Origin: Escherichia coli
GTDB taxonomy: Bacteria; Pseudomonadota; Gammaproteobacteria; Enterobacterales; Enterobacteriaceae
Direction: 5' to 3' (one strand)
NCBI RefSeq assembly: GCF_022846255.1
Contig: NZ_AP025682.1
Length of the DNA stretch: 64,000 nt
Of this stretch, positions 17,752-23,839 are shown in pieces. The translations under genes were made by a program, and so were the position numbers. The notes below the pieces were generated by a model, which did not search any database, was not told the DNA's origin, and saw nothing but the letters and a program-made list of their open reading frames with translations. How positions within the stretch are numbered: the stretch's first letter is position 1; each line of letters starts with the position of its first letter.

Positions 17752-19989
17752 GTGGACTGGCTTCTTGATGTTTTTGCTACCTGGCTCTACGGCTTAAAAG
17801 TAATCGCGATAACGTTAGCGGTCATTATGTTCATCAGCGGGCTGGACGATTTTTTTATTGATGTCGTCTACTGGGTACGCCGCATTAAACGCAAGTTGAG
17901 TGTTTATCGCCGCTACCCGCGAATGAGTTACCGCGAACTGTATAAACCAGATGAAAAACCGTTAGCGATTATGGTTCCGGCGTGGAATGAAACGGGCGTC
18001 ATCGGCAATATGGCCGAGCTGGCGGCGACCACGCTCGACTACGAAAACTATCATATCTTTGTTGGCACCTACCCCAACGACCCCGATACTCAGCGTGATG
18101 TTGACGAAGTGTGCGCTCGCTTCCCGAACGTGCATAAGGTAGTCTGCGCGCGTCCTGGCCCCACCAGCAAAGCCGACTGTCTGAACAACGTGCTGGACGC
18201 CATCACCCAATTTGAACGTAGCGCCAATTTCGCTTTTGCTGGTTTTATTCTGCATGACGCCGAAGATGTGATTTCACCGATGGAATTGCGTCTGTTCAAC
18301 TATCTGGTCGAGCGTAAAGATCTGATTCAGATCCCAGTGTATCCGTTCGAACGCGAATGGACGCACTTCACCAGCATGACCTACATTGATGAGTTTTCAG
18401 AACTGCATGGCAAAGATGTTCCGGTGCGTGAAGCCCTCGCCGGACAGGTGCCCAGCGCAGGCGTCGGCACCTGTTTCAGCCGCCGCGCCGTGACCGCACT
18501 GTTAGCTGACGGTGACGGTATTGCTTTCGACGTGCAGAGTCTGACTGAAGATTACGACATTGGCTTCCGCCTGAAAGAGAAAGGTATGACGGAAATTTTT
18601 GTCCGTTTTCCGGTGGTGGACGAAGCCAAAGAACGCGAGCAGCGTAAATTTTTACAGCATGCGCGGACGTCAAACATGATCTGCGTGCGCGAATATTTCC
18701 CCGATACCTTTTCGACTGCGGTTCGGCAAAAATCTCGCTGGATCATCGGCATTGTTTTCCAGGGCTTTAAAACCCACAAATGGACCTCCAGCCTGACGCT
18801 GAACTACTTTCTCTGGCGCGACCGCAAAGGGGCAATCAGTAACTTTGTCAGCTTCCTCGCGATGCTGGTGATGATCCAGCTTTTGCTGTTGCTGGCGTAT
18901 GAAAGTTTGTGGCCCGATGCCTGGCATTTCCTTTCTATTTTCAGCGGCAGCGCATGGTTAATGACTCTGCTGTGGCTAAACTTTGGCTTGATGATTAACC
19001 GCATCGTGCAGCGGGTGATTTTCGTTACTGGCTACTACGGCCTGACGCAGGGGCTGCTATCTGTCCTGCGTCTTTTCTGGGGCAACCTGATTAACTTCAT
19101 GGCCAACTGGCGCGCGTTAAAACAGGTACTTCAACACGGCGATCCACGTCGCGTCGCGTGGGATAAAACAACGCATGACTTCCCCAGCGTGACTGGCGAT
19201 ACCCGCTCGTTGCGTCCGTTAGGTCAAATCCTGCTGGAAAATCAGGTCATCACTGAAGAACAACTCGATACAGCACTGCGTAATCGCGTCGAAGGTCTAC
19301 GCCTGGGCGGTTCAATGCTGATGCAGGGGCTGATTAGCGCCGAGCAACTGGCACAGGCGCTGGCAGAGCAAAACGGCGTGGCGTGGGAATCCATCGATGC
19401 CTGGCAGATCCCTTCCTCGCTGATTGCCGAAATGCCGGCCTCCGTGGCGTTGCATTATGCGGTACTGCCGCTGCGTCTGGACAATGATGAGTTAATTGTC
19501 GGCAGTGAAGATGGTATTGACCCGGTTTCGCTGGCGGCCCTGACGCGTAAAGTCGGACGCAAAGTGCGTTACGTCATTGTTCTGCGGGGACAAATTGTCA
19601 CCGGATTACGCCACTGGTATGCACGCCGACGCGGTCACGATCCGCGGGCAATGTTGTACAATGCAGTTCAGCATCAGTGGCTCACGGAACAGCAGGCCGG
19701 TGAAATCTGGCGGCAATATGTGCCGCATCAGTTCCTGTTCGCAGAAATACTGACCACGCTCGGTCATATTAATCGTTCAGCAATTAACGTGTTGTTATTG
19801 CGCCATGAACGCAGTTCTCTGCCGCTCGGCAAGTTTTTGGTCACCGAAGGCGTTATCAGCCAGGAAACGTTGGATCGCGTCCTGACAATTCAACGCGAAT
19901 TACAAGTTTCGATGCAATCACTATTACTCAAAGCAGGTTTAAACACTGAACAGGTTGCACAACTGGAGTCCGAAAATGAAGGAGAATAA
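17752..19989 (+). CDS. nfrB: NfrB, inner-membrane glycosyltransferase-family protein required for phage N4 adsorption
   Basis: 745 aa; GT2-like N-terminal region and C-terminal soluble domain. Confidence 0.93.
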   Translation: MDWLLDVFATWLYGLKVIAITLAVIMFISGLDDFFIDVVYWVRRIKRKLSVYRRYPRMSYRELYKPDEKPLAIMVPAWNETGVIGNMAELAATTLDYENYHIFVGTYPNDPDTQRDVDEVCARFPNVHKVVCARPGPTSKADCLNNVLDAITQFERSANFAFAGFILHDAEDVISPMELRLFNYLVERKDLIQIPVYPFEREWTHFTSMTYIDEFSELHGKDVPVREALAGQVPSAGVGTCFSRRAVTALLADGDGIAFDVQSLTEDYDIGFRLKEKGMTEIFVRFPVVDEAKEREQRKFLQHARTSNMICVREYFPDTFSTAVRQKSRWIIGIVFQGFKTHKWTSSLTLNYFLWRDRKGAISNFVSFLAMLVMIQLLLLLAYESLWPDAWHFLSIFSGSAWLMTLLWLNFGLMINRIVQRVIFVTGYYGLTQGLLSVLRLFWGNLINFMANWRALKQVLQHGDPRRVAWDKTTHDFPSVTGDTRSLRPLGQILLENQVITEEQLDTALRNRVEGLRLGGSMLMQGLISAEQLAQALAEQNGVAWESIDAWQIPSSLIAEMPASVALHYAVLPLRLDNDELIVGSEDGIDPVSLAALTRKVGRKVRYVIVLRGQIVTGLRHWYARRRGHDPRAMLYNAVQHQWLTEQQAGEIWRQYVPHQFLFAEILTTLGHINRSAINVLLLRHERSSLPLGKFLVTEGVISQETLDRVLTIQRELQVSMQSLLLKAGLNTEQVAQLESENEGE

Positions 19990-22948: not shown

Positions 22949-23839
22949 ATGCGTAAGTTCATTTTCGTATTGCTGACACTGCTTTTGGTCAGCCCTTTTT
23001 CCTTTGCGATGAAAGGTATTATCTGGCAACCACAAAACCGTGATAGTCAGGTTACCGATACCCAGTGGCAGGGGCTGATGAGTCAGTTACGTTTGCAAGG
23101 CTTCGATACCCTGGTTTTGCAATGGACTCGTTACGGCGATGCATTCACCCAGCCAGAACAGCGCGCGTTATTGTTTAAGCGTGCCGCAGCTGCGCAACAG
23201 GCTGGCCTGAAGCTGATTGTCGGGCTGAATGCCGATCCGGAATTTTTTATGCACCAGAAACAGTCGTCTGCAGCGCTGGAAAGCTATCTTAACCGCCTGC
23301 TGGCTGCCGATCTCCAGCAAGCCAGATTATGGAGCGCCGTACCTGGCGTAACGCCGGATGGCTGGTACATCAGCGCGGAAATTGACGACCTGAACTGGCG
23401 CAGCGAAGCCGCCCGTCAGCCTTTGCTAACATGGTTAAACAACGCGCAGCGGTTGATTAGCGATGTTTCAGCAAAACCGGTTTATATCAGTAGTTTTTTC
23501 GCCGGAAACATGTCGCCCGATGGCTATCGCCAACTGCTGGAACACGTTAAAGCAACCGGCGTTAATGTCTGGGTACAGGATGGCAGCGGCGTGGATAAAC
23601 TGACCGCTGAACAGCGTGAACGTTATCTACAGGCCAGCGCCGATTGCCAAAGCTCCGCCCCAGCAAGCGGCATTGTTTATGAACTGTTTGTCGCCGGCAA
23701 AGGCAAAACCTTTACAGCGAAACCGAAACCGGACGCAGAAATTGCCTCGCTGTTAGCGAAACGTTCCTCTTGCGGTAAAGACACGCTCTATTTCTCTCTG
23801 CGCTATTTGCCCGTCGCGCACGGCATTCTCGAGTATTAA
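22949..23839 (+). CDS. ybcH: YbcH, periplasmic protein co-transcribed with nfrBA
   Basis: ATG immediately follows the nfrA TAA; signal peptide; 296 aa. Confidence 0.9.
   Translation: MRKFIFVLLTLLLVSPFSFAMKGIIWQPQNRDSQVTDTQWQGLMSQLRLQGFDTLVLQWTRYGDAFTQPEQRALLFKRAAAAQQAGLKLIVGLNADPEFFMHQKQSSAALESYLNRLLAADLQQARLWSAVPGVTPDGWYISAEIDDLNWRSEAARQPLLTWLNNAQRLISDVSAKPVYISSFFAGNMSPDGYRQLLEHVKATGVNVWVQDGSGVDKLTAEQRERYLQASADCQSSAPASGIVYELFVAGKGKTFTAKPKPDAEIASLLAKRSSCGKDTLYFSLRYLPVAHGILEY

What the first reader, a model, noticed from the sequence alone, without database searches (positions are those of the whole stretch)
17752..23839. nfrB-nfrA-ybcH as a translationally coupled three-gene unit (phage N4 receptor / surface-polymer module)
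The nfrA start overlaps the nfrB 3' end by 14 nt and the ybcH ATG directly follows the nfrA stop, so all three are likely co-translated. NfrB has a glycosyltransferase-like domain, NfrA is a TPR-rich outer-membrane protein, and YbcH is periplasmic. That architecture resembles a synthase, periplasmic component and outer-membrane exporter set rather than just a phage receptor.
Basis: partly seen in the sequence, partly recalled or inferred. Interest (0 to 1): 0.35.

Follow-up and report, generated by a model that had tools for sequence, protein, structure and literature searches.

The report
Known E. coli nfrBA-ybcH exopolysaccharide operon
This is the ordinary, already published E. coli nfrB-nfrA-ybcH operon, which makes and exports a c-di-GMP-controlled surface sugar polymer that phage N4 uses as its receptor; the only new point is that its third protein, YbcH, looks like a periplasmic sugar-cutting enzyme rather than a passive scaffold.

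Summary
nfrB (17752-19989), nfrA (19976-22948) and ybcH (22949-23839) lie on the + strand. The nfrB/nfrA overlap is 14 nt, and the nfrA stop directly abuts the ybcH ATG.

Junkermeier & Hengge (PMC8669469) show the operon and the 14-nt overlap. They propose the same model of an inner-membrane synthase, a periplasmic protein and an outer-membrane pore. They measured c-di-GMP binding by NfrB (Kd about 1 uM) and showed that its glycosyltransferase residues are needed for N4 infection. Sellner et al. (PMC8669472) reached the same model independently. RefSeq already names NfrB a c-di-GMP-activated glycosyltransferase.

ybcH is dispensable for N4 plating and contributes only partially to the motility and fitness phenotypes.

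My additions are small:
- The gene order and tight junctions (-14 to +8 nt) hold in eight loci from several genera.
- YbcH (DUF4434), called a "putative scaffold" in the literature, models confidently as a (beta/alpha)8 barrel. It most resembles glycoside hydrolases.
- Glu144 (strand 4) and Glu245 (strand 7) are invariant, and the signal-peptidase site is canonical.

This predicts a soluble periplasmic glycan hydrolase comparable to BcsZ or the PgaB C-terminal domain. Novelty: already known. Interest: low.

The parts
17603..17751 (+). cusS-nfrB intergenic region, presumed to hold the operon promoter
   Evidence: cusS ends at 17602. No sigma-70 consensus hit falls here. The best sigma-28 match is only 8 of 12 positions. 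The published nfrB::lacZ fusion is FliA-dependent and weakly expressed, but the promoter itself has not been mapped.
17752..19989 (+). nfrB: inner-membrane c-di-GMP-activated family-2 glycosyltransferase (the synthase)
   Evidence: NCBIfam NfrB equivalog scores 1332 bits against a cutoff of 1170. Pfam finds GT2 at aa 70-382. D169, TED265-267 and QKSRW326-330 are present. Hydrophobic segments lie at aa 18-36, 365-383 and about 393-419.
19210..19635 (+). NfrB MshEN-type c-di-GMP-binding region (aa 487-628)
   Evidence: The NCBIfam c-di-GMP motif covers aa 489-540 and Pfam MshEN covers aa 542-628. PDB sequence hits are to the MshE and PilF c-di-GMP-binding domains. L490, G491 and L537, the residues mutated in PMC8669469, are present.
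19965..19989 (+). nfrB/nfrA junction: GGAG (19965-19968), nfrA ATG (19976) and the 14-nt overlap up to the nfrB stop (19987-19989)
   Evidence: Read directly from the sequence. GGAG lies 7 nt before the ATG. The same 14-nt overlap occurs in Citrobacter locus L006 and is drawn for K-12 in Fig. 1B of PMC8669469.
19976..22948 (+). nfrA: outer-membrane protein with a signal peptide (aa 1-27), a periplasmic TPR array and a C-terminal beta-barrel (aa about 741-990)
   Evidence: NCBIfam PRK09782 scores 1887 bits. Pfam finds TPR families and NfrA_C at aa 809-977. The AF2 model of aa 591-990 has pLDDT 78.5 and shows TPR helices followed by 12 beta strands. Its best Foldseek PDB match is E. coli BcsC, 9b8a, E 2.4e-8. 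The protein ends in ...GVHW.
22934..22951 (+). nfrA/ybcH junction: GGAG (22934-22937), nfrA stop TAA (22946-22948) and ybcH ATG (22949-22951)
   Evidence: Read directly from the sequence. The GGAG lies inside the conserved codons for the NfrA C-terminal GVHW, so its conservation cannot be credited to ribosome binding alone.
22949..23839 (+). ybcH: DUF4434 protein with a signal peptide (aa 1-20) and a (beta/alpha)8 barrel (aa 21-296); predicted periplasmic glycoside hydrolase
23849..23877 (+). 13-bp hairpin 10 nt after the ybcH stop; likely marks the 3' end of the operon transcript
   Evidence: RNA fold of 23830-23930 gives -23 kcal/mol, z = -2.3. No U-run follows, so it is not a canonical intrinsic terminator, and the terminator scan did not report it.

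Best explanation
Window 17752-23839 is the E. coli nfrB-nfrA-ybcH operon, the Nfr synthase-dependent exopolysaccharide system.

Shown by others:
- NfrB is an inner-membrane family-2 glycosyltransferase. Its C-terminal MshEN domain binds c-di-GMP, supplied locally by DgcJ.
- Genetic evidence indicates that NfrB polymerises UDP-ManNAc, made by WecB, into a secreted polymer called NGR.
- Phage N4 and several other phages use this polymer as their first receptor. N4 then binds NfrA itself.

Inferred by others and re-tested here: NfrA is the exporter, made of a periplasmic TPR array and an outer-membrane beta-barrel.

Inferred here: YbcH is exported through a cleavable signal peptide and is a soluble periplasmic (beta/alpha)8-barrel glycoside hydrolase. 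Glu144 on strand 4 and Glu245 on strand 7 form the catalytic pair. It would trim, clear or release the polymer, as BcsZ, PslG, PelA and the PgaB C-terminal domain do in other synthase-dependent systems. This would explain why its loss gives only partial phenotypes.

Inferred from geometry: the three genes are transcribed together, and the overlap and abutment allow translational coupling that would keep the subunits in proportion.
For: Identity:
- The stretch matches E. coli chromosomes at 95-99.3% identity in 5243 of 5426 complete genomes, annotated nfrB, nfrA and ybcH.
- NCBIfam equivalog models for all three proteins score above their cutoffs.

Published mechanism:
- Operon structure, 14-nt overlap, c-di-GMP Kd of 1 uM, and loss of N4 plating in glycosyltransferase and MshEN point mutants.
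- WecB but not WecC is required, and the motility phenotype tracks UDP-ManNAc supply.
- nfrB is linked to wecB in other taxa. I saw the same linkage in loci L002, L003 and L010.
- All six residues mutated in that paper are present here.

NfrA: TPR helices followed by a beta-barrel in my model, with BcsC as the top structural match. Sellner et al. modelled it like PgaA and BcsC.

YbcH:
- Confident TIM-barrel model.
- 24 of 38 invariant residues sit at the C-terminal ends of the eight barrel strands (odds ratio 8.5, p = 1e-8). Only 3 sit on the opposite face.
- E144 and E245 stay invariant in 65 homologs that share only 23-45% identity with YbcH.
- The signal-peptidase site has Ala at -1 in 38 of 38 homologs and a small residue at -3 in 37 of 38.

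Unit: gene order and tight junctions are conserved in eight loci.
Against: - No YbcH enzyme activity has been measured, and no paper in the searchable library assigns it one.
- YbcH has no sequence-level match to any CAZy-type Pfam family or to any PDB sequence.
- The residue before E144 is Ala, not the Asn typical of clan GH-A.
- Foldseek TM-scores to solved hydrolases are only 0.4-0.5.
- I could not superpose the model on a hydrolase, so the equivalence of the two Glu with catalytic residues rests on strand positions alone.
- ybcH deletion has mild phenotypes. That fits an accessory hydrolase, but it also fits a dispensable scaffold.
- Translational coupling is untested, and neither junction shows significant RNA structure.
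- The chemical structure of the polymer has not been determined.
Confidence: 0.9

Rival explanations
1. YbcH is a non-catalytic periplasmic scaffold or auxiliary subunit, anchored in the inner membrane by an uncleaved signal sequence. It would bridge NfrB and NfrA. This is the view stated in the literature.
For: Proposed in PMC8669469, PMC10211494 and PMC10118264. The mild deletion phenotypes are compatible with it. YbcH has no sequence match to any characterised hydrolase family.
Against: Conservation is concentrated on the catalytic face of the barrel, with two invariant Glu on strands 4 and 7. That is the signature of an active site, not of a protein-protein interface. Every close structural neighbour is a glycoside hydrolase. 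The -3/-1 positions follow the signal peptidase I rule in 37-38 of 38 homologs, which argues for cleavage and a soluble protein. In other synthase-dependent systems the bridging role falls to the TPR domain, which NfrA already supplies.
Confidence: 0.25
2. NfrA and NfrB are simply the protein receptor and an uptake factor for phage N4, with no polymer involved, and ybcH is an unrelated passenger gene. This is the pre-2021 view.
For: This was the historical annotation; the NCBIfam and RefSeq names 'phage receptor' and 'bacteriophage adsorption protein NfrA' still reflect it. According to the 2021 papers, N4 does bind NfrA in a second adsorption step.
Against: Point mutations in the glycosyltransferase active site (D169A, D267A, W330A) abolish N4 plating without changing NfrB levels. 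WecB is required and c-di-GMP is required. ybcH travels with nfrBA, with junctions of 8 nt or less, in distant genera.
Confidence: 0.02
3. The tight junctions are ordinary operon compaction with no regulatory meaning. Each gene would be translated independently from its own ribosome-binding site.
For: GGAG motifs precede both downstream start codons. No structure better than shuffled controls occludes them. The exact geometry varies between taxa (-14, -8, -4, -1, 0, +1, +8), so no particular overlap is conserved. Overlaps of 1 and 4 nt are the commonest in bacteria generally (established knowledge).
Against: The distance never exceeds 8 nt in eight loci spanning two bacterial orders. The ybcH GGAG lies 11 nt from the ATG, which is long for independent initiation. 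Junkermeier & Hengge placed their NfrB tag upstream of the overlap specifically to avoid effects on NfrA initiation.
Confidence: 0.4

Closest known systems
E. coli K-12 Nfr system (nfrBA-ybcH; Junkermeier & Hengge 2021, Sellner et al. 2021)
   Same: It is the same locus: same three genes, same 14-nt overlap, same flanking genes (cusS, envY), and all functionally tested residues conserved.
   Different: Only allelic differences. Against the closest complete genome there are 45 nucleotide differences over 6088 bp, giving 2 amino-acid changes in NfrB, 6 in NfrA and none in YbcH.
Bcs cellulose system (BcsA/BcsB, BcsZ, BcsC)
   Same: An inner-membrane processive GT2 synthase activated by c-di-GMP. 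An outer-membrane protein made of a TPR array and a beta-barrel; BcsC is the best structural match to NfrA. A periplasmic glycoside hydrolase encoded in the operon (BcsZ), which is the role I predict for YbcH.
   Different: The c-di-GMP receptor is MshEN rather than PilZ. E. coli has no BcsB-like subunit in this operon. BcsZ is a GH8 (alpha/alpha)6 enzyme (established knowledge), whereas YbcH is a (beta/alpha)8 barrel. The presumed substrate is UDP-ManNAc, not UDP-glucose. My NfrA barrel model has 12 strands against 16 in BcsC.
Pga poly-GlcNAc system (PgaC/D, PgaB, PgaA)
   Different: YbcH has no deacetylase domain and no lipoprotein signal. It shows no sequence similarity to PgaB. Its conserved Glu pair on strands 4 and 7 resembles clan GH-A more than GH153.
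Clan GH-A ('4/7') glycoside hydrolases such as GH5 mannanases and GH164 beta-mannosidase; also PDB 4h41 (BT_0435)
   Different: There is no detectable sequence homology and no Asn-Glu motif on strand 4. The family (DUF4434) has no characterised member in the searchable literature.

Membership tests
E. coli Nfr system (NfrB/NfrA/YbcH) | Each protein scores above the curated cutoff of its equivalog model | tested here: met
   NfrB NF008411 scores 1332 bits (cutoff 1170). NfrA NF007302 scores 1887 (cutoff 1223). YbcH NF007404 scores 522 (cutoff 344).
E. coli Nfr system (NfrB/NfrA/YbcH) | Chromosomal position between cusS and envY, with gene order nfrB-nfrA-ybcH | tested here: met
E. coli Nfr system (NfrB/NfrA/YbcH) | NfrB catalytic motifs (D169 of the DxD-type site, TED, QxxRW) and the MshEN c-di-GMP motif residues L490, G491 and L537 | tested here: met
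   All are present. Their functional importance is published.
E. coli Nfr system (NfrB/NfrA/YbcH) | c-di-GMP binding, polymer production and N4 adsorption | not testable with these tools
   Published for K-12. Not measured for this allele.
Synthase-dependent exopolysaccharide secretion systems (Bcs/Pga/Alg/Pel type) | Inner-membrane processive GT2 synthase with transmembrane helices flanking the catalytic domain | tested here: met
   GT2 domain at aa 70-382 with QKSRW. Hydrophobic segments before it (aa 18-36) and after it (aa 365-383, about 393-419).
Synthase-dependent exopolysaccharide secretion systems (Bcs/Pga/Alg/Pel type) | Post-translational activation by a c-di-GMP receptor domain | tested here: met
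   An MshEN-type motif is present. Binding itself is published. The receptor type differs from PilZ (Bcs, Alg) and from the PgaCD and PelD sites.
Synthase-dependent exopolysaccharide secretion systems (Bcs/Pga/Alg/Pel type) | Outer-membrane beta-barrel porin coupled to a periplasmic TPR domain | tested here: met
   AF2 model with TPR helices and a barrel. The top Foldseek match is BcsC. The strand number is unresolved: 12 in my model, 16 stated by Sellner et al..
Synthase-dependent exopolysaccharide secretion systems (Bcs/Pga/Alg/Pel type) | Operon-encoded periplasmic glycoside hydrolase or lyase | tested here: inconclusive
   YbcH has a hydrolase-like fold and a conserved Glu pair. Its activity is untested.
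Clan GH-A glycoside hydrolases (for YbcH) | (beta/alpha)8 barrel fold | tested here: met
Clan GH-A glycoside hydrolases (for YbcH) | Conserved Glu at the end of strand 4 (acid/base) and of strand 7 (nucleophile) | tested here: met
   E144 lies in strand 138-146 and E245 ends strand 241-245. Both are invariant in 65 homologs. No structural superposition was possible.
Clan GH-A glycoside hydrolases (for YbcH) | Asn immediately before the acid/base Glu, and sequence membership in a CAZy GH family | tested here: not met
   The residue before E144 is Ala143. Only DUF4434 is hit in Pfam even at E up to 10. There are no PDB sequence hits. I therefore do not file YbcH as a GH-A member, only as GH-A-like in fold and in the layout of its candidate active site.
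Translationally coupled gene pair | Downstream start codon overlapping, or within a few nt of, the upstream stop codon | tested here: met
   -14 nt and 0 nt here; -14 to +8 nt in eight loci.
Translationally coupled gene pair | Downstream translation depends on upstream translation (for example, the ribosome-binding site is masked by structure) | tested here: inconclusive
   Predicted folds at both junctions are no better than shuffles (z -0.26 and -0.88). The dependence itself needs an experiment.

The most novel reading that the evidence does not exclude
YbcH founds an uncharacterised glycoside hydrolase family (DUF4434; about 800 clusters at 50% identity). Its physiological substrate would be the ManNAc-based Nfr polymer, cut by a retaining mechanism using E144 and E245. 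Purified YbcH would then be the first enzymatic tool for cutting, sizing and chemically defining this still undescribed E. coli surface glycan. Its dosage could tune sensitivity to N4-like and Vequintavirinae phages.
Probability: 0.4. Interest if true: 0.45.

Novelty: already known. Interest (0 to 1): 0.1.

Why it matters
The locus matters biologically. It makes a conserved, c-di-GMP-gated surface glycan that many coliphages exploit, and it is a textbook case of local second-messenger signalling. All of that was published in 2021, so flagging the locus adds nothing new.

The remaining open questions are the chemical structure of the polymer and the role of YbcH. The prediction made here (cleavable signal peptide, hydrolase-like barrel, Glu144/Glu245 pair) turns the second question into a simple point-mutant and enzyme-assay experiment. 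It could also supply a reagent for answering the first.

Tried and rejected
1. Promoter search in the 149-bp cusS-nfrB spacer. No sigma-70 hit was found, and the best sigma-28 match was 8 of 12 positions. The published FliA dependence cannot be tied to a site from sequence alone.

2. Intrinsic terminator after ybcH. The scan found none. Folding found a strong hairpin without a U-tract.

3. RNA structure masking the nfrA or ybcH start. Not significant.

4. Sequence-level links from YbcH to solved structures or to GH families. None were found, with the single protein, with the 39-sequence profile, or with Pfam at E up to 10.

5. Apparent fusions of a YbcH domain to VgrG (P0121), to PAAR/Rhs (P0122) and to TPR (P0138). 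At first these looked like evidence for a secreted toxin or enzyme domain.
- They are 98-99% identical to E. coli YbcH from residue 50-54 onward.
- The contig continues into envY-fimZ-sfm.
- The junction is absent from all 5426 complete genomes.
- I therefore reject them as draft-assembly chimeras or rare rearrangements and draw no functional inference from them.

6. Literature search for DUF4434, PF14488, BT_0435 and 4H41, and for post-2021 work on the polymer. Nothing relevant was found.

7. NfrA strand count. My model has 12 strands against 16 published.
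Full report
**Observation**

On the + strand:
- nfrB runs 17752-19989, starts with GTG and encodes 745 aa.
- nfrA runs 19976-22948 and encodes 990 aa.
- ybcH runs 22949-23839 and encodes 296 aa.

The nfrA ATG lies 14 nt before the end of nfrB; the shared stretch is ATGAAGGAGAATAA. The nfrA TAA is followed at once by the ybcH ATG. A GGAG sits 7 nt before the nfrA ATG and another sits 11 nt before the ybcH ATG.

The stretch matches 5243 of 5426 complete E. coli genomes at 95-99.3% identity. In RefSeq it carries exactly these gene models, between cusS and envY.

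**What the proteins are**

NCBIfam equivalog models for all three proteins score well above their cutoffs.

NfrB:
- It has a family-2 glycosyltransferase domain (aa 70-382) and an MshEN-type c-di-GMP-binding region (aa 489-628).
- The catalytic residues D169, T265-E-D267 and Q326-K-S-R-W330 are present, as are the MshEN residues L490, G491 and L537.
- Hydrophobic segments flank the catalytic domain.

NfrA:
- It has a classical signal peptide ending ALA|D, several TPR hits and the NfrA_C domain.
- An AlphaFold model of aa 591-990 (nine-sequence alignment, pLDDT 78.5) shows TPR helices up to about aa 736, followed by a beta-barrel.
- Its best match among solved structures is the E. coli cellulose exporter BcsC (9b8a/9b8h, E 2.4e-8).

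YbcH matches only DUF4434.

**It is already published**

Junkermeier & Hengge 2021 (PMC8669469) describe the nfrBA-ybcH operon and draw the 14-nt overlap in their Fig. 1B. [quoted passage not shown] Their experimental results:
- The NfrB MshEN domain binds c-di-GMP with a Kd of about 1 uM.
- D169A, D267A and W330A abolish N4 plating.
- DgcJ activates NfrB locally.

Other relevant papers:
- Junkermeier & Hengge also report the linkage of nfrB to wecB-type epimerase genes in other taxa. I saw this independently in loci L002, L003 and L010.
- Sellner et al. 2021 (PMC8669472) reached the same model, named the polymer NGR, proposed that it is ManNAc-based, and modelled NfrA as a PgaA/BcsC-like exporter.
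- Later reviews repeat this picture.

The published data are mixed. A ybcH deletion plates N4 normally and only partly suppresses the motility defect. A 2025 RB-TnSeq preprint gives it a moderate fitness score. YbcH is an accessory component.

**Is the three-gene unit more than chance?**

I retrieved loci that encode distant YbcH homologs (43-70% identity). In all eight loci with enough flank the order is nfrB-nfrA-DUF4434. The nfrB/nfrA distances are -14, -4, -8, +1, -14, -4, -4 and -1 nt. The nfrA/ybcH distances are 0, -4, +8, -1, -1, 0, -1 and -1 nt.

The unit and its compaction are therefore conserved across Enterobacterales and in Rhodanobacter, although the exact geometry is not.

Translational coupling is plausible but unproven. 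Predicted RNA folds at both junctions are no better than shuffled controls. In addition, the ybcH-proximal GGAG lies in the conserved codons for the NfrA C-terminal GVHW.

**The one point where the evidence goes beyond the literature: YbcH**

[quoted passage not shown] My results point elsewhere.

- *Signal peptide.* In 39 homologs, the residue at -1 relative to Met21 is Ala in 38 of 38 scorable sequences. The residue at -3 is Ala, Ser, Val or Thr in 37 of 38. That is the canonical signal peptidase I pattern, so a soluble periplasmic protein is more likely.
- *Fold.* The AlphaFold model (pLDDT 92.4, pTM 0.89) is a (beta/alpha)8 barrel.
- *Where conservation lies.* 24 of the 38 invariant residues sit at the C-terminal ends of the eight barrel strands, which is the catalytic face of TIM-barrel enzymes. 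Only 3 sit on the opposite face (odds ratio 8.5, p = 1e-8).
- *Deeper conservation.* A profile search of 1.84 billion representatives found 798 related clusters. In an alignment of 65 of them, sharing only 23-45% identity with YbcH, just eight columns are invariant. They include Glu144 on strand 4 and Glu245 at the end of strand 7.

A Glu on strand 4 and a Glu on strand 7 is the arrangement of the clan GH-A ("4/7") retaining glycosidases (established knowledge).

Every well-studied synthase-dependent polysaccharide system encodes a periplasmic hydrolase or lyase whose loss gives partial phenotypes: BcsZ, PslG, PelA, the PgaB C-terminal domain and AlgL (established knowledge). I therefore think YbcH is the hydrolase of the Nfr system (about 0.55-0.6 confidence).

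Points against:
- There is no sequence-level link to any characterised GH family or solved structure.
- Ala, not Asn, precedes Glu144.
- I could not superpose coordinates.
- No activity has ever been measured.

For these reasons I do not file YbcH as a GH-A member, only as GH-A-like.

**A trap avoided**

The best hits of the profile search included ORFs that fuse a YbcH domain to VgrG, to PAAR/Rhs or to TPR modules. These would have suggested a secreted effector enzyme.
- They are 98-99% identical to E. coli YbcH from residue 50-54 onward.
- The contig continues into envY and fimZ.
- The junction is absent from all 5426 complete genomes.

They are assembly chimeras or rare rearrangements and carry no functional weight.

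**Other details**

- A 13-bp hairpin (23849-23877, -23 kcal/mol, z -2.3) follows the ybcH stop by 10 nt but has no U-tract.
- The 149-bp region upstream of nfrB has no recognisable sigma-70 or sigma-28 consensus, despite the published FliA dependence.
- Across complete E. coli genomes, at least 80% of the gene is present in 5031 genomes for nfrB, 5135 for nfrA and 5221 for ybcH. The synthase gene is thus lost or disrupted most often. This fits the remark by Sellner et al. about insertion elements and deletions in nfrB.
- My NfrA barrel model has 12 strands, whereas Sellner et al. state 16. This is unresolved.

**Verdict**

Interest is low. The only testable increment is the prediction that YbcH is a cleaved, soluble, periplasmic glycoside-hydrolase-like enzyme with Glu144 and Glu245 as its catalytic pair.

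Noticed in passing
window 22949-23008 (YbcH aa 1-20): YbcH homologs carry a canonical signal peptidase I site: Ala at -1 in 38 of 38, and a small residue at -3 in 37 of 38. This conflicts with the published statement that YbcH lacks a cleavage site and stays membrane-anchored.
   Followed up: partly
window 22196-22945 (NfrA aa 741-990): My AlphaFold model of the NfrA C-terminus shows 12 DSSP beta strands in about 250 residues. After BcsC, the next barrel matches are 12-strand barrels (COG4313 channel, FapF). Sellner et al. describe a 16-strand barrel. Model confidence is moderate (pLDDT 78.5, nine-sequence alignment).
   Followed up: partly
window 23849-23877: A strong 13-bp hairpin lies 10 nt after the ybcH stop (-23 kcal/mol, z -2.3). 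It has no following U-run, and the terminator scan did not report it.
   Followed up: partly
window 17603-17751: The cusS-nfrB intergenic region has no sigma-70 or sigma-28 consensus match (best sigma-28 match 8 of 12), although the operon is reported to be FliA-dependent. The GTG start of nfrB has only a weak AAGG upstream.
   Followed up: partly
window 17752-23839, compared with 5426 complete E. coli genomes: Genes present at 80% coverage or more: nfrB 5031, nfrA 5135, ybcH 5221. The synthase gene is missing or disrupted most often, as expected if phage pressure selects for its loss. Four copies of the locus lie on plasmids.
   Followed up: partly
window 19976-22948 (nfrA): The nfrA allele here has no match better than 99.3% in any complete genome, and only 93 genomes reach 99%. 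By contrast, nfrB and ybcH each have 100% matches, in different strains. This suggests a mosaic or faster-evolving receptor gene. There are 6 amino-acid differences from the closest genome, at positions 232, 293, 333, 592, 628 and 836.
   Followed up: partly
L012:1-1770 (E. coli draft contig AARRJC010000078.1); proteins P0121, P0122, P0138: These are ORFs that join VgrG, PAAR/Rhs or NfrA-TPR sequence to E. coli YbcH from residue 50-54 (or 135) onward. The VgrG junction is absent from all complete genomes, so it is an assembly chimera or a rare rearrangement that removes nfrBA.
   Followed up: yes
protein P0246 (486 aa, distant DUF4434 homolog): A DUF4434 domain is fused to a C-terminal SPOR domain, which binds peptidoglycan. 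This hints that other branches of the family act on cell-wall glycans.
   Followed up: no
L008:1759-14894 (Izhakiella australiensis): The nfrB-nfrA-DUF4434 operon lies tail-to-tail with a cellulose synthase cluster (bcsD, bcsC, bcsB and a PilZ-containing bcsA). Two c-di-GMP-controlled polysaccharide systems are therefore adjacent.
   Followed up: no
window 24828-24904 (- strand): A tRNA-Arg(tct) gene lies just downstream of envY and is followed by fimZ. No prophage or ompT lies between them, as in strain E7-1N7. From memory, K-12 carries the DLP12 prophage at this tRNA.
   Followed up: no
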